Shown here piece after piece: positions 24,711 to 32,765 of a DNA stretch of 64,000 nt (positions within the stretch are counted from its first letter, which is position 1; each line of letters starts with the position of its first letter). This DNA comes from a virus (Duplodnaviria > Caudoviricetes), in IMG/VR virus record IMGVR_UViG_3300032237_001169, positions 44,842 to 108,841 of that record; one strand, 5' to 3'. The notes beneath the pieces are model-generated. The model was not told the origin of the DNA, did not search any database, and saw nothing but the letters and a program-made list of their open reading frames with translations. Position numbers and translations under genes: made by a program.

Positions 24711-27020
24711 ATGACTGACAACAAACTAGATTTTTGGATACAAAATAATTACAATGTACTTTTTGTGGGACGCCATGGAACAGGCAAAACTACACGTATT
24801 ATCGAAGCATTCAATAGAAATAATATTAAATGGAAATATTTTAGTGCTGCTACCCTTGATCCTTGGACAGATTTAGTCGGCATTCCAAAAGAAGCAAAAG
24901 ATCAAAGCGGAAATTCTTATTTAGATTTTATTTTACCAAAGGATTTTTCTAATGATGAAGTGGAAGCTATATTTTTTGATGAATACAATAGATGTTTGAG
25001 CGGTGATACAAAAATTTTATCCCCGGACGGAAATTCATATAAAATAAAAGATTTGGTTGGAAAAGAATATTTTTACACGTATTCATTTGATCAAAAAACA
25101 AACAAAATATGTATCGGAAAAGGACATTCTGCCAGAATAACGCATAAGAATGCAAAAATATTAAAAGTTACATTGGATAATGGTACATATATAAAATGTA
25201 CTCCGGATCATCCTTTTTTATTAAAAAGCGGAGAATACAAACAAGCACAATACTTAACTCCCGAAGAATCGCTAATGCCTTTATATAAAATATGGAACGA
25301 AAATGGCTATGAAAAAATATATCAGCCAAAGTCGAACGGAAGATTCGACCTAACATATTGCTTGGCAAATCAATATAATATAAATTCAAATAAATATAAA
25401 CATACGAAATTATATCATAAACACCACATAGACTTTAATAAAAATAATAATTCACCAGACAATATAATTGAGTTATCTAGAGATGAACATTTTAAAATTC
25501 ATGGTGAAAATTCAAACTTTTTAATTGATGCTGGAAAAAAAGCTCTTCATAAAAATCATTTGATGCGAATTGTAAATTTGATGATAGACACAAACCTAAA
25601 GGTTGAAACTGAAAATGATTATAATATCTTATTAGAAACTGCGAAGAAAAATAAAAAACCAATTTTAAAATATTCTACATTCGTTAAATTATTTACATTC
25701 AAAGAATTAGAAGAATTGAGAAATGTCTCTTTCTTAAAAAGAAAAACAATAAATCATAAAATCGTATCCATAGAAGAATGTGGATTTGAGGATGTATATG
25801 ATATAACAGTTGATTCATATGGAAATTTTGCACTGGAAGCCGGAATATTTGTTCATAATTCACCAAGCAAAGTGCGTAATGCAACAATGGAATTGTTGCA
25901 ATTCAAGAGTATTAATGGTAAAAAATTCAAGAACTTAAAGTTCATTTGGGCTGCAATCAATCCAGAAAAGGATTTAAACGATGATAGTGCTCCTGAATAT
26001 GATGTTGAAGCACTTGATCCGGCTCAAAAAGATCGTTTTGAGATTCATGTAGAAGTTCCATATAAGCCAGACATTACCTATTTCAAAAACAAATACGGTG
26101 ATGATATTGGAAAAACTGCCGTAAGTTGGTGGAATGATCTAAATGATAAAGAAAAAGATGAAGTTAGTCCACGTCGTTTGGATTATGCCATCGGTCTTTA
26201 TATTAAAAGTGGTGATCTGCGTGATGTATTGAACAAAAAAATCAATGTTAGCAAATTGGTTGGAGAATTGAAAAACGGCAATTTCCGCGAACAAATGGAA
26301 AACATTTACAAAAATCGTGATTTAGAAAAAGCCAGTGCCTTCATCAAAGACGAAAATAGCTATAACAACACTATCAAATATATCTTACAGGATAAAAACA
26401 AATTGGATTTCTTCTTCAAATATGTACCAGAAGAAAAACAAAGTAATTTGGTAGCCACCGACGATGTTGCTATGAAATATGCATTTAATAACATGGATAA
26501 ATATAATGTTATTGTGCAACGTGCAAGCATTGCCAACACCAAAATTGCAAAAGCATTGGCAAAATGGATGAAGAACAAGCCAATGGATGTAACCAATTTT
26601 GATAATTTCTCATTCTCTAGCACCAAGCTAAAATTTGCTAAACCACCTAGAGCAATGGGAACTTCGGGATACAAGAGCTATACAGACATGATAAATAGCG
26701 AAATGACCGAATCGACCAAAGGAACTGCATATCGTAAAAATGCATTTAAATCCATTGCATGGGCATTGTATAATGACAAAGGTTATGGTAATCCAACTCC
26801 TACTAATCCATTAACTGAAAAAGAAGCAAAATTAACATTGGATGGTTTGAATAATCTAATTGATAGCATTTATCAATTTGAAAATTTCAAAGAACTGCCA
26901 CAAGTTTATGGTTTGGTATGCGGTGAATATTTGAAGCGTTTTGGTAAAAAGCAAACTTATAATAAGTTAACTCGCAAAGTACAAGAATTCTTGAACCTAC
27001 ACGGCAATATGTATATCTAA
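24711..27020 (+). CDS. MoxR-type AAA ATPase containing an intein
   Basis: GRHGTGKT, DLVGIP, FFDEYNR|S, AAINP, LDPAQ.DRF, SPR. Confidence 0.9.
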   Translation: MTDNKLDFWIQNNYNVLFVGRHGTGKTTRIIEAFNRNNIKWKYFSAATLDPWTDLVGIPKEAKDQSGNSYLDFILPKDFSNDEVEAIFFDEYNRCLSGDTKILSPDGNSYKIKDLVGKEYFYTYSFDQKTNKICIGKGHSARITHKNAKILKVTLDNGTYIKCTPDHPFLLKSGEYKQAQYLTPEESLMPLYKIWNENGYEKIYQPKSNGRFDLTYCLANQYNINSNKYKHTKLYHKHHIDFNKNNNSPDNIIELSRDEHFKIHGENSNFLIDAGKKALHKNHLMRIVNLMIDTNLKVETENDYNILLETAKKNKKPILKYSTFVKLFTFKELEELRNVSFLKRKTINHKIVSIEECGFEDVYDITVDSYGNFALEAGIFVHNSPSKVRNATMELLQFKSINGKKFKNLKFIWAAINPEKDLNDDSAPEYDVEALDPAQKDRFEIHVEVPYKPDITYFKNKYGDDIGKTAVSWWNDLNDKEKDEVSPRRLDYAIGLYIKSGDLRDVLNKKINVSKLVGELKNGNFREQMENIYKNRDLEKASAFIKDENSYNNTIKYILQDKNKLDFFFKYVPEEKQSNLVATDDVAMKYAFNNMDKYNVIVQRASIANTKIAKALAKWMKNKPMDVTNFDNFSFSSTKLKFAKPPRAMGTSGYKSYTDMINSEMTESTKGTAYRKNAFKSIAWALYNDKGYGNPTPTNPLTEKEAKLTLDGLNNLIDSIYQFENFKELPQVYGLVCGEYLKRFGKKQTYNKLTRKVQEFLNLHGNMYI
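24993..25859 (+). mobile_element. Intein (289 aa) with HNH endonuclease
   Basis: Begins CLSGDT, block B CTPDHPF, HHIDFNK.NN.PDN, ends VYDITV...FVHN followed by Ser. Confidence 0.95.
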
Positions 27021-29981: not shown

Positions 29982-30530
29982 ATGAATCCTCCGAAAAAAT
30001 ATGCCGTATTTGAAAAAATCCCGGCGCACACTGGTAAACCAGACAGTGTTATACTTGCTCCATATAATACAAAAGAAGAGGCGCAAAATGATAGAGAAAA
30101 GTATGGATACAATACAGACAATTATTATGTTGATGCATATAATAGTGATGTAGAAAAATACATGAATGATCTAATAAAGAAAATAAAGAAAATTCCATAT
30201 AATAATGAGATTTAGTTTAAAATAAGGATTAATATGAAGAAAAAAACAAATAAAATAGAAAAAAAGAAAATGTATTGTCTAAGCATCATGGACGATTATG
30301 GTGAATTGTGGCTTGGGCACAACAAAGAACCAATTGCATTTGTTCATTGTAATGATGCTGGTTTCGACGAAGAATATCAATCATTTATTTTTGATTATCT
30401 AAATGTTGATTTAATTTGTGAAAACATCTATATCGAAGATGATGATTTAGAAGAAAAATTGCATGAAGAAAGCGGCGACGAAAATGCAATTGCCAAATTG
30501 TTAAAATCAGAAATAGATAAATTGCCATGA
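29982..30530 (+). CDS. Two hypothetical proteins (29982-30215, 30234-30530)
   Basis: ORFs. Confidence 0.6.
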
Positions 30531-30820
30531 AAAGAAGAACATTTCTAAAAACAATTTTTCCTACAATATTTGCACCCAAATTAATTGTACCTGTATGGAA
30601 AACAATCAAACCCGTTCATTCGTTTGATAAATTTATATTTCCACAAATTAGTAGAGTATTTCCCACTCTTCTAGTCAATGAATTGGTTAGTGTTCAACCA
30701 ATGTCTATGCCATGTTCCCAAATATTTTATATGGATTTTGTAACAACTAGCAAAAGTGACGATGATTGCTTTCAACAATTATTTAAAAAATATGCTATAT
30801 TTGGTAAATTGGAGGCATGA
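30527..30820 (+). CDS. Mini-protein: RR-type N-terminus plus a gp23 major-capsid (Gol-region) fragment
   Basis: MKRRTFLK; FP.ISRVFPTLLVNELVSVQPMSMP.SQIFYMDF. Confidence 0.7.
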   Translation: MKRRTFLKTIFPTIFAPKLIVPVWKTIKPVHSFDKFIFPQISRVFPTLLVNELVSVQPMSMPCSQIFYMDFVTTSKSDDDCFQQLFKKYAIFGKLEA

Positions 30821-30821
30821 T

Positions 30822-31532
30822 ATGATAAATAAAATAAAAAAACTTCTAGGTCACAAGTTCGAAAACAGATACACTTGGGGAGAATTGTATACTGGTTTTA
30901 AATGTAGAGATTTGAGCTTTAGATATACCGGCGGTGGCATATACGGATGTGATATGCTCATTGTAAGTATTCCATTTTTATTTAAATCATATATCCATAC
31001 AAACAAAGAAAAGGAAAACGAATGGGATAGCAAAGAATGGAGCTATGGATTTTATGTTTATAGCTGGACGGAGGATGTTGTTTTTGAATGGGAACACAAT
31101 CGTCACAGATTTGAATTTCCATGGATGTTACAATGGCAAAAAACTGAAATTCTTGATTTTGACCACAATGTATTGAGCATCAGAACCAAAAAAGATAAAA
31201 ATATCTATACAAATGGTGGCAAATACGATCAGGAAGAAAAAATAAAAGAAAGTATTGAAAAACAATATGCTTACACTTATATTTTGAAAAGCGGCGAAAT
31301 TCAAAATTGCATAGCAACAATCAAATGCGTTGATAGAATGACTTGGGGATGGAAGTGGTTTCCGTGGAAGCGATTTGTTCGAACCAGTATTGATGTTCGC
31401 TTCAGTGAAGAGGTAGGTGAAAAAAGTGGCAGTTGGAAAGGTGGATGCACTGAATGTGGATATAATATGTTACCAAATGAAACAGCCGAACAATGTTTGC
31501 GAAGAATGGAACGTGAAAGAAAATTTAATTGA
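30822..31532 (+). CDS. Conserved Trp-rich phage protein
   Basis: IDVRFSEEVGE.SGSWKGGC...GY.M...ET..QCLRRME.ER.F. Confidence 0.7.
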   Translation: MINKIKKLLGHKFENRYTWGELYTGFKCRDLSFRYTGGGIYGCDMLIVSIPFLFKSYIHTNKEKENEWDSKEWSYGFYVYSWTEDVVFEWEHNRHRFEFPWMLQWQKTEILDFDHNVLSIRTKKDKNIYTNGGKYDQEEKIKESIEKQYAYTYILKSGEIQNCIATIKCVDRMTWGWKWFPWKRFVRTSIDVRFSEEVGEKSGSWKGGCTECGYNMLPNETAEQCLRRMERERKFN

Positions 31533-31534
31533 AT

Positions 31535-32245
31535 ATGAAAATATATTTATTTGATATTGATGGAACATTGACTCCTGCTCGCCAACCGATGACCAGTGAG
31601 TTCAAACAAATGTTTAGCAAGTGGTGTGAAAATAAAATTGTTTATCTTGTAACAGGCAGTGACTATGATAAAGTTAAAGAACAAGTAGATATAGATATTT
31701 TAAATAAAATAACAGGAGTATTTGGTTCAATGGGCAATGAATTGTATATAAGTGGAGAACTCAAATATTCAAATAACGACACAATACCACATGCTTGTAT
31801 TGAGTTTTTAAATCAAAAACTAAAGTCAACATCATATCCATATGAACGTGGTATAATAAATTTTGAACATCGTATTGGAATGTTAAATTTTAGCGTGGTT
31901 GGTAGAGGTATTTCATTAGAAACAAGAAAAAAATATTTTGAATGGGATAGTGTTGCAAAAGAAAGACAACATATCGCAGATGAATTTAACAAATTGTTTC
32001 CAGAATATGAAGCAAAACTCGGAGGACAAATTAGTCTTGATATACAACGAGTTGGAAAAAACAAAGCGCAAGTAGTGGATTATCTACAAAAACAGTATAA
32101 CAATTTTTATTTTGTGTTTACTGGTGATAGAACGATGCCGGGAGGAAATGATTATGATTTGGCACATAAAATCATCACAAACTCAATAGGAGTTGTAAAT
32201 CAAGTTGAAAATCAAAATGATGTGTTGAAACTATTGTATATTTAA
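31535..32245 (+). CDS. HAD-IIB phosphomannomutase (eukaryote-type PMM)
   Basis: LFDIDGTLTPAR, VTGSD, E.R.GMLNFS.VGR, GGQIS.D, GD....GGNDY. Confidence 0.9.
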   Translation: MKIYLFDIDGTLTPARQPMTSEFKQMFSKWCENKIVYLVTGSDYDKVKEQVDIDILNKITGVFGSMGNELYISGELKYSNNDTIPHACIEFLNQKLKSTSYPYERGIINFEHRIGMLNFSVVGRGISLETRKKYFEWDSVAKERQHIADEFNKLFPEYEAKLGGQISLDIQRVGKNKAQVVDYLQKQYNNFYFVFTGDRTMPGGNDYDLAHKIITNSIGVVNQVENQNDVLKLLYI

Positions 32246-32268
32246 ATGGTTGTGTAATAAAAAAATAT

Positions 32269-32586
32269 ATGAATAAACCGGAAAAACAAAATCTATTATA
32301 TAATAATTATCATTCTGTAGAAAAGTATTTGTTAGATAATAAAATTTGGACAAATAATTTAGCAGATTATTTCTGGAAATCTTTATGCAATGAAGGAAAA
32401 ATTAGAAACGGCACTCCATTTAACATATCTGATTGGGAGCTAAAACATGAAAATGGAAAATTTTCATATCTAGTTGATAAAAAGAAACGCATAGCAATAG
32501 AAAGTTTGCTGGCCCATTTTGGAGAATCTGACAAAAATTGTCTTGATTCTAATGTATTGACGGCGACATTCATCGTGACTTGGTAA
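32269..32586 (+). CDS. Hypothetical protein
   Basis: ORF. Confidence 0.55.
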   Translation: MNKPEKQNLLYNNYHSVEKYLLDNKIWTNNLADYFWKSLCNEGKIRNGTPFNISDWELKHENGKFSYLVDKKKRIAIESLLAHFGESDKNCLDSNVLTATFIVTW

Positions 32587-32607
32587 AAAAATTTTCTGAA
32601 AAAGGCG

Positions 32608-32636
32608 TTGACATTCTCAACGGCATCGTCTAAAGT
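32608..32636 (+). promoter_or_regulatory. Sigma70-like promoter
   Basis: TTGACA-N17-TAAAGT. Confidence 0.75.
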
Positions 32637-32648
32637 ATCTCCACAATT

Positions 32649-32754
32649 GAGATGCATACAGCAATAAAACTCCTTGTCATGGAAAAAAATGCATCTCGTA
32701 TTTGAAAAAATTTCGATACTCACAGCAGATAAAATTTAACAAAAACAACGTATC
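32649..32754 (+). ncRNA. Two tandem stem-loops sharing ACAGCA in the leader
   Basis: GAGATGCAT-ACAGCA...ATGCATCTC and GATAC-TC-ACAGCA...GTATC. Confidence 0.55.
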
Positions 32755-32765
32755 TAGTAAAACAT

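What the first reader, a model, noticed from the sequence alone, without database searches (positions are those of the whole stretch)
30527..30820. Stand-alone mini-protein carrying just the gp23 Gol-like capsid segment
Residues FIFPQISRVFPTLLVNELVSVQPMSMPCS-QIFYMDF (about 30632-30739) align without gaps to the T4 gp23 Gol peptide as I recall it (AVMGMVRRAIPNLIAFDICGVQPMNSPTG), sharing R, P, L, VQPM and P. The ORF is 97 aa, lies among early accessory genes, is ATGA-coupled to its neighbour and starts with a twin-arginine-like MKRRTFLK. Established: Gol binds EF-Tu and activates the Lit protease, and capsid proteins trigger several defences. Inference: a decoy or antagonist of capsid-sensing immunity, an EF-Tu modulator, or a dominant-negative inhibitor of competitor capsid assembly.
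Basis: partly seen in the sequence, partly recalled or inferred. Interest (0 to 1): 0.8.

Follow-up and report, generated by a model that had tools for sequence, protein, structure and literature searches.

The report
Export-tagged mini copy of capsid segment
A large uncultured T4-like phage keeps a small gene that joins a bacterial twin-arginine (Tat) export-type leader to a stand-alone copy of the most conserved stretch of the head-shell protein, the stretch that triggers the Lit defence in phage T4. It belongs to a family I found in no paper, and its job is untested.

Summary
ORF 30527-30820 (+, 97 aa) matches Pfam Gp23 above the curated cut-off (38.5 vs 24.4 bits, residues 31-78 to profile 2-49 of 376). 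It aligns without gaps to T4 gp23 99-127, the Gol stretch.

It is not a decaying fragment. Seventeen clusters of 83-109 aa exist, and dN/dS is 0.1-0.37 for pairs with dS above 0.3. The gene persists while its neighbours are swapped.

The most conserved part is the 30-aa leader (MKRRTFLK, then a proline-rich hydrophobic stretch). A leader-only profile finds further 76-191 aa mini-proteins with other cargo. One cargo is a second capsid piece, the P-loop hairpin with YAPYIPL.

A close relative's own capsid protein is 50% identical over the copied stretch. Alone, the protein is predicted to be disordered. In this genome a 1-bp deletion rewrote the last residues, and a cassette with an Acb3-like anti-CBASS gene was inserted just downstream.

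Function is untested. My best guess (about 0.35) is an envelope-directed mimic of unassembled capsid protein that competes for a host factor recognising this stretch. The scan met the same gene design earlier in at least four other genomes. I found no paper describing it.

The parts
30527..30820 (+). Mini-protein gene, 97 aa including the frameshifted tail, stop TGA 30818-30820
   Evidence: ORF list and sequence. 17 homologous clusters of 83-109 aa. dN/dS 0.11-0.37 for pairs with dS above 0.3.
30527..30616 (+). Leader, residues 1-30: MKRRTFLK twin-arginine motif followed by the proline-rich hydrophobic stretch TIFPTIFAPKLIVPVWK
   Evidence: Most conserved part of alignment A1. dN/dS 0.05-0.24 for pairs with dS above 0.6. 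A leader-only profile finds 21 proteins, almost all 76-191 aa, with the leader at residue 1.
30617..30760 (+). Capsid-derived segment, residues 31-78. It equals the end of the N-arm plus the first P-domain beta-strand of T4-type major capsid proteins (the Gol-equivalent stretch with VSVQPM).
   Evidence: Pfam PF07068 residues 31-78 to profile 2-49. T4 gp23 99-127. Own-lineage capsid protein residues 78-111, 17/34 identical. Structural mapping from PMC9546572.
30767..30817 (+). Lineage-specific tail, residues 81-97, created by a 1-bp deletion after position 30768. Relatives end with RFST[LF]I and a TAA stop that is now out of frame here.
   Evidence: DNA alignment A5 with four relatives.
30234..30530 (+). 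Upstream 98-aa gene of unknown function, ATGA-overlapped with the mini-gene start
   Evidence: No Pfam or PHROG match. In relative L096, three further genes lie between this gene and the mini-gene.
30809..32582 (+). 1.77-kb cassette absent from relatives at this site: Acb3-like gene (30822-31532), an ORF of 238 aa (31529-32245) and a 105-aa ORF (32269-32586)
   Evidence: Homology to L096, L086, L092 and L094 stops near 30790-30811 (30808 against L096) and resumes at 32583-32585. Pfam Acb3 PF25187 E 2e-38.

Best explanation
Shown: this is a real gene kept by selection. It encodes a three-part mini-protein. (1) A roughly 30-residue twin-arginine (Tat-type) leader. (2) A roughly 50-residue copy of the start of the mature T4-type major capsid protein: the end of the N-arm plus the first P-domain strand, which is the Gol-equivalent VSVQPM stretch. 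(3) A short tail, rewritten in this genome by a 1-bp deletion. It belongs to a family of leader-tagged mini-proteins of uncultured large T4-like phages. Related leaders there carry other cargo, including a second capsid piece (the P-loop hairpin). Alone the protein is predicted to be disordered. Inferred: the leader takes or tethers the peptide to the cell envelope. There it acts as a molecular mimic of unassembled capsid protein, binding by strand pairing to a partner that normally recognises this most conserved capsid stretch. I favour a non-activating competitor for a host capsid-sensing factor. The model is Lit, which from my own recollection of the older literature is membrane-associated and is triggered by exactly this stretch of T4 gp23.
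For: Gp23 profile match above the cut-off and restricted to profile positions 2-49. Ungapped match to the T4 Gol stretch. 17 clusters of conserved length. Purifying selection on both leader and capsid part. The positions kept invariant in the minis (P39, P46, VSVQPM, P62, F67, Y68) appear, by eye, to be the ones conserved in the full capsid proteins I compared. This suggests the peptide makes capsid-like contacts. A second mini-protein in relatives joins a related leader to capsid residues equal to T4 gp23 436-482, and is 54% identical to the lineage's own capsid protein. Both pieces map to the P-domain sheet. The gene survives while flanking accessory genes are inserted and deleted. Neighbours are counter-defence-type genes. 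[quoted passage not shown] AlphaFold gives no autonomous fold, mean pLDDT 47, as expected for a peptide that folds on a partner.
Against: No binding, localisation or phenotype data exist. A true Gol mimic should trigger Lit-type defence rather than block it. If the leader drives real Tat export with the cargo outside, the peptide leaves the compartment where EF-Tu, Lit's substrate and new capsid protein sit. The Tat reading is itself unproven. Pfam TAT_signal and NCBIfam give no hit above threshold. A lysine interrupts the hydrophobic stretch in this copy, and no AxA cleavage site is conserved. Adjacency to Acb3 is not conserved in relatives. Most other cargos behind the leader show no capsid similarity, so the capsid piece may not define the family's function. 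The host is unknown. No Lit-like gene is in the partial phage records G000 and G001, the only DNA searched for it.
Confidence: 0.35

Rival explanations
1. Envelope protein with a co-opted capsid strand. The Tat-type leader exports or anchors the peptide in the inner membrane with the cargo in the periplasm. There the beta-strand-forming piece does an envelope job unrelated to capsid recognition, for example superinfection exclusion or interference with an outer-membrane or periplasmic protein by strand pairing.
For: The leader is the most constrained part and is shared with mini-proteins carrying unrelated cargo. The RRxF[FL]K motif plus an uncharged stretch fits Tat signals, with sub-threshold TAT_signal hits up to 18.8 bits. 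No cleavage motif is conserved, as in uncleaved signal anchors.
Against: VSVQPM and the flanking capsid-conserved positions stay invariant at dS above 1. That is hard to explain if the capsid origin is irrelevant. A second, different capsid piece was recruited behind a related leader.
Confidence: 0.22
2. Weapon against competing T4-type phages. The peptide pairs with the P-domain sheet of a co-infecting phage's capsid protein and poisons its folding or assembly.
For: Both recruited pieces are P-domain sheet elements needed for folding and for contacts between capsomers. Among the 120 best-scoring of more than 7,950 matching capsid proteins, several foreign ones are more similar (up to 29/50) than the relative's own capsid protein (18/50).
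Against: That comparison set was chosen for similarity, so the ranking is biased. More basal family members resemble the own-lineage capsid protein as well as they resemble the foreign set: 25-26/50 against set medians of 23-25. The phage's own capsid protein keeps the same motifs and would be hit too. An export-type leader does not fit a cytoplasmic target.
Confidence: 0.13
3. Helper or regulator of the phage's own head assembly or capsid-protein folding, for example a membrane-tethered nucleation or chaperone-titrating peptide, or an EF-Tu modulator.
For: Derived from the lineage's own type of capsid protein. T4 gp23 folding depends on chaperonin action on the P domain, and a gp31-bypass mutation lies in the stretch copied by the second mini-protein. 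The Gol stretch binds EF-Tu in T4.
Against: The gene sits among accessory genes far from the head genes: 60 kb from the capsid gene in relative G001. It is absent from the cultured T4-type phages searched. The family is patchy and small.
Confidence: 0.1
4. No function: a leftover of partial duplication of the capsid gene, in this genome already starting to decay.
For: This copy carries a 1-bp deletion that rewrites its tail. Partial gene duplicates exist in T4, as the record annotates for alt.-1 and alt.-2.
Against: Conserved length in 17 clusters, dN/dS well below 1 at dS up to 2, invariant motifs, and retention through neighbouring gene turnover. The frameshift spares residues 1-80.
Confidence: 0.05

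Closest known systems
Gol region of T4 gp23 (about residues 93-122) and the e14 Lit protease / EF-Tu exclusion system
   Same: The mini-protein carries the homologous stretch, with an ungapped alignment to gp23 99-127 that includes VQPM. In T4 a short peptide of this stretch is enough to act (PMC3014915).
   Different: Here the stretch is a separate gene behind an export-type leader, not part of a capsid protein. Only 10 of 29 residues match T4. EF-Tu binding and Lit activation are untested. The host is unknown and probably not enterobacterial.
T4-type major capsid protein family (Pfam PF07068; gp23 and its vertex paralogue gp24)
   Same: Significant profile match. 50% identity to the copied stretch of a close relative's own capsid protein.
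   Different: It covers only about 48 of 376 profile positions. It has no HK97 fold of its own, with mean pLDDT 47, so it cannot be a shell subunit.
Twin-arginine (Tat) signal peptides, including uncleaved Tat signal anchors such as those of Rieske proteins (own knowledge)
   Same: RRTFLK matches the S/T-R-R-x-F-L-K consensus. It is followed by a mostly uncharged stretch and a basic residue.
   Different: No library model reaches threshold. There is an extra conserved motif, P-K-L-I-x-P-x-W-K. No AxA site is present. Export is untested.
Phage anti-defence proteins acting on sensors of structural proteins, e.g. DSAD1 against the tail-tube sensor DSR2 (PMC11087589, abstract seen)
   Same: Precedent that phages encode small proteins neutralising a sensor of a virion protein.
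   Different: As far as I know, DSAD1 is not a copy of the trigger. A trigger-derived mimic would be a new design.
Partial gene duplicates in T4 (alt.-1 / alt.-2, as annotated in NC_000866)
   Same: Small ORFs derived from part of a larger phage gene.
   Different: Those are described as old duplications with a stop codon, with no shared targeting leader, and they are not a multi-lineage family under selection.

Membership tests
Pfam PF07068 Gp23 (T4-type major capsid protein) | Profile match above the curated gathering score | tested here: met
   38.5 bits against 24.4, E 1.2e-9. 16 of 17 homologues carry the same precomputed hit.
Pfam PF07068 Gp23 (T4-type major capsid protein) | Full-length HK97-type fold able to form a shell subunit | tested here: not met
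   Only profile positions 2-49 of 376 are present. The protein is 97 aa. AlphaFold mean pLDDT is 47 with no domain.
Gol peptide (functional class: activator of Lit through EF-Tu) | Sequence homologous to gp23 residues about 93-122 | tested here: met
   Ungapped alignment to gp23 99-127. The family profile hits only gp23 94-128 among solved structures.
Gol peptide (functional class: activator of Lit through EF-Tu) | Binds EF-Tu domains II/III and promotes Lit cleavage of EF-Tu | not testable with these tools
   Needs biochemistry. The residue-level mutagenesis paper was not available.
Tat (twin-arginine) signal peptide | S/T-R-R-x-F-L-K motif near the N-terminus | tested here: met
   The protein starts MKRRTFLK. 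R3, R4, F6 and K8 are invariant in 18 sequences. N-R-R-x-F-F is invariant in the six type-A leader relatives aligned in A6.
Tat (twin-arginine) signal peptide | Match to curated Tat signal models (Pfam PF10518, NCBIfam) | tested here: not met
   No hit for the window protein. The best relative scores 18.8 bits against a cut-off of 22.7.
Tat (twin-arginine) signal peptide | Uncharged hydrophobic region of about 12-20 residues and a signal-peptidase site | tested here: inconclusive
   In this copy K18 interrupts the stretch. Relatives have 12-13 uncharged residues before a lysine. No conserved AxA.
Tat (twin-arginine) signal peptide | Tat-dependent export | not testable with these tools
   Needs localisation experiments. 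No TatA gene in the phage records.

The most novel reading that the evidence does not exclude
Large T4-like phages make 'trigger mimics': short copies of the most conserved, immune-visible strands of their own capsid protein. These are tagged for the cell envelope and made apart from the capsid protein itself. They blind or pre-empt host receptors that sense capsid protein. This would be a new class of anti-defence built from the pathogen's own recognised pattern.
Probability: 0.25. Interest if true: 0.9.

Novelty: categorically new. Interest (0 to 1): 0.7.

Why it matters
Capsid proteins are among the main signals by which bacteria detect phages. Lit sensing Gol is the classic case; CapRel, and capsid escape mutants against CBASS, are further cases I cite from memory. 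A conserved phage gene that presents only the most conserved capsid strand, behind an export-type leader, has two possible readings. It may be a new way of handling capsid-sensing immunity or rival phages. Or it may be an unexpected re-use of capsid pieces as envelope proteins. Either way it defines an undescribed family of modular mini-proteins (leader plus exchangeable cargo) in large environmental phages. It also gives short, easily synthesised peptides to test against EF-Tu, Lit-type proteases and capsid assembly.

Tried and rejected
(1) No full capsid gene lies in the window's record. Attempts to reach the 319-kb contig of a relative failed. A first candidate capsid protein (P0031) came from an unrelated 56% GC phage. 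The lineage's capsid protein was finally found in relative G001.

(2) I rejected the idea that the mini-protein is one piece of a split capsid gene. The relative has an intact 587-aa capsid gene 60 kb away.

(3) I rejected the idea that the leader is a capsid-targeting tag shared by several phage proteins. Only one leader-bearing ORF occurs in each of G000 and G001.

(4) The other cargos behind the leader gave no Pfam, PHROG or capsid match. The two tried (P0146 and P0153) also gave no match in cultured phages.

(5) AlphaFold and ESM Atlas gave no usable fold.

(6) NCBIfam found nothing.

(7) The phage records hold no TatA and no Lit-type peptidase.

(8) Literature searches for capsid decoys, twin-arginine phage proteins and dominant-negative capsid fragments found nothing relevant. 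The Gol mutagenesis paper is not held.

(9) Adjacency to Acb3 as a functional link is weakened. The Acb3 cassette is an insertion specific to this genome.

Full report
**What is there**

The window is the 3' 64 kb of a 108,841-bp IMG/VR virus record of 32.5% GC, judged about half complete. ORF 30527-30820 on the + strand encodes 97 residues. Its ATG overlaps the stop of the upstream 98-aa gene in ATGA.

Pfam Gp23 (PF07068) matches residues 31-78 to profile positions 2-49 of 376. The score is 38.5 bits against a curated cut-off of 24.4, E 1.2e-9. PHROG 138 (major head protein) matches at E 1.5e-8.

I fetched T4 from the phage collection. T4 gp23 residues 99-127 align without gaps to residues 41-69 of the ORF, 10 of 29 identical. 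A profile of the family hits only T4 gp23 chains among all solved structures, at residues 94-128.

**Is it a live gene?**

A search restricted to similar lengths found 17 clusters of 83-109 aa at 43-89% identity. All but one carry the Gp23 hit.

In the alignment the N-terminal 25-30 residues are the best conserved part: M1, R3, R4, F6, K8, P12, I14, F15, P17, I20, P22 and W24 are invariant. Next come P39, P46, VSVQPM, P62, F67 and Y68.

I computed Nei-Gojobori dN/dS on six orthologues with DNA in hand. For pairs with dS above 0.3 the whole gene gives 0.11-0.37. For pairs with dS above 0.6 the leader gives 0.05-0.24 and the capsid-derived part gives 0.10-0.34.

**This copy and its neighbourhood**

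DNA alignment with four relatives shows a 1-bp deletion after 30768, at codon 81. It replaces the ancestral end (RFST[LF]I, then TAA) with 17 different residues and moves the stop to 30818-30820. Residues 1-80 are untouched.

Homology to relative L096 stops at 30808 and resumes at 32583. The block between is absent from the relatives at this site. It holds an Acb3-like gene at 30822-31532 (Pfam PF25187, E 2e-38), a 238-aa ORF and a 105-aa ORF. Acb3 is described as a CD-NTase-targeting CBASS inhibitor (bioRxiv 10.1101/2025.07.23.666291).

Upstream, three genes present in relative L096 are missing here. In most relatives the mini-gene lies about 345 bp upstream of a DUF2828 gene. In a more distant relative it sits between ADP-ribosylglycohydrolase genes and a SIR2 gene. 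The mini-gene is thus a stable resident of a region where accessory genes, partly of counter-defence type, come and go. Its adjacency to Acb3 is not conserved.

**The phage's own capsid protein**

The window's record holds no full capsid gene. G001 is an 85.6-kb IMG/VR record whose DUF2201 protein is 94% identical to the window's. It carries both the mini-gene and an intact 587-aa Gp23-family capsid gene about 60 kb away.

The mini-protein's residues 38-71 are 50% identical (17/34, E 2e-10) to residues 78-111 of that capsid protein. More basal family members share further lineage-specific residues with it, 25-26 of 50. The copied stretch lies downstream of the capsid protein's N-terminal region, which I take to be its propeptide. 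That is an inference from the T4 layout, not something tested here.

More than 7,950 longer proteins match the same stretch, all precomputed Gp23 hits in the 120 listed. The lineage's capsid protein is closest to those of Microcystis phage Mel-JY01 (51%) and Flavobacterium phage immuto (60%). No cultured phage has the mini-gene.

**A second capsid piece and a wider leader family**

In relatives L092 and L093 a second 89-aa gene starts with a related leader (MKRRSFFRSLATLFVAPTVLVR...). It carries a different capsid piece. Pfam Gp23 matches profile positions 305-338 at 25.4 bits. It is 54% identical to residues 524-570 of the lineage's capsid protein, including the lineage-specific VGFRGxNFLE and the motif YAPYIPL. 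It aligns to T4 gp23 436-482. It forms its own small family of four clusters, 89-98 aa. It is absent from the window's record.

I searched a profile of the leader alone against 1.84 billion representative proteins. It returned 21 hits at E below 0.001. Eighteen are proteins of 76-191 aa with the leader at residue 1. The other three are long proteins hit internally by repeats.

The commoner leader type reads M-N-R-R-x-F-F-K, then an Ala/Pro-rich stretch, then F-[VI]-P-K-L-I-x-P-x-W-K. Behind it, one further protein carries a VQPM capsid piece and one a YAPYIP capsid piece. The other eleven cargos match no capsid protein, Pfam family or PHROG.

**Where the pieces sit in the capsid protein**

The cryo-EM study of T4 heads is PMC9546572. 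In it, gp23 residues 66-105 are the flexible N-terminal arm, L106 is the first ordered residue, and 132-160 is the first I-domain linker.

The mini-protein's piece (gp23 about 89-137) is therefore the end of the N-arm plus the first P-domain strand.

A455 lies in the P-domain sheet and is a gp31-bypass site. T457, R460 and G461 lie at the P loop near the quasi-threefold contacts. All fall inside the stretch copied by the second mini-protein.

Both recruited pieces are thus strands of the P-domain sheet, which includes the most conserved stretch of the family. [quoted passage not shown]

**Structure**

AlphaFold2 run with the family alignment gives mean pLDDT 47 and no domain. The ESM Atlas model is equally poor. 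The protein most likely folds only on a partner.

**The leader**

RRTFLK fits the Tat consensus S/T-R-R-x-F-L-K. It is followed by a mostly uncharged stretch and a basic residue.

The curated models do not reach threshold, however. There is no hit for this protein, and the best relative scores 18.8 bits against 22.7. No signal-peptidase site is conserved, and K18 interrupts the hydrophobic stretch in this copy.

I read it as a probable Tat-type targeting or anchoring signal, by my own estimate about 0.7. It carries an extra conserved motif of unknown meaning. No TatA gene and no Lit-type peptidase occur in the two phage records.

**How it most likely works**

Shown: a conserved, selected, modular mini-protein made of a leader plus a capsid strand.

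Inferred: the capsid-type positions remain invariant at high synonymous divergence. So the peptide probably makes the same kind of contacts that this strand makes in, or on the way to, the capsid protein.

I commit, at about 0.35, to an envelope-directed mimic that competes without activating for a host factor recognising this stretch. The model is Lit.

The main difficulties are two. A faithful Gol mimic should trigger rather than block such a defence. True Tat export would put the cargo outside the cytoplasm.

The rivals are:
- An envelope function unrelated to capsid recognition (0.22).
- Poisoning of competitors' capsid assembly (0.13).
- A helper of the phage's own head assembly or folding, or an EF-Tu modulator (0.10).
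- A functionless remnant (0.05).

**Comparison with what is known**

It is not a capsid protein: the fragment is too small and has no fold. It is homologous to the Gol stretch but untested as a Gol. It is Tat-like but fails the curated models.

I found no paper describing capsid-fragment mini-proteins or leader-tagged capsid pieces.

After I had reached this reading, I looked up earlier notes of this scan. They report the same design (Tat-type leaders on capsid fragments, and in one case portal fragments) in at least four other genomes, also without a known function. Those notes agree with my results, but they are not independent evidence. I did not test the portal claim.

Noticed in passing
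window 30822-31532: Acb3-like protein (Pfam PF25187 CBASS inhibitor Acb3, E 2e-38, covering residues 43-235 of 236). It starts 2 nt after the mini-gene's stop, behind a GGAGG.
   Followed up: partly
window 30809-32582: 1.77-kb block (Acb3-like gene, 238-aa ORF, 105-aa ORF) absent from four relatives at this site. In L096 about 142 bp of spacer lie there instead.
   Followed up: partly
L092:4205-4474 and L093:4351-4620: Second leader-tagged mini-protein (89 aa) carrying the capsid P-loop hairpin piece (YAPYIPL; Pfam Gp23 positions 305-338). It is 54% identical to the lineage's own capsid protein and absent from the window's record.
   Followed up: yes
proteins P0146-P0161: Wider family of 76-191 aa proteins sharing the leader (NRRxFF..AP..F.P.LI...WK) with diverse cargo of unknown origin. 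Only two of the thirteen show capsid similarity.
   Followed up: partly
window 24711-27020: 769-aa ATPase-like ORF where relatives have about 480 aa. The extra part begins CLSGDTKIL and ends VHNS, which looks like an intein with an endonuclease domain.
   Followed up: no
L091:4871-9920: In a distant relative the mini-gene lies between two ADP-ribosylglycohydrolase genes, a DUF2786 gene and a SIR2 gene.
   Followed up: no
L096:10262-10608 and equivalents: Relatives keep a non-coding gap of about 345 bp between the mini-gene and the DUF2828 gene. The window's equivalent (32583-32765) holds a TTGACA-17-TAAAGT promoter-like site.
   Followed up: no
window 30520-30533: About 14 bp at the mini-gene start align to two places in relative L096 (8908-8921 and 9994-10007). 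This suggests the loss of three genes here went through a short repeat.
   Followed up: partly
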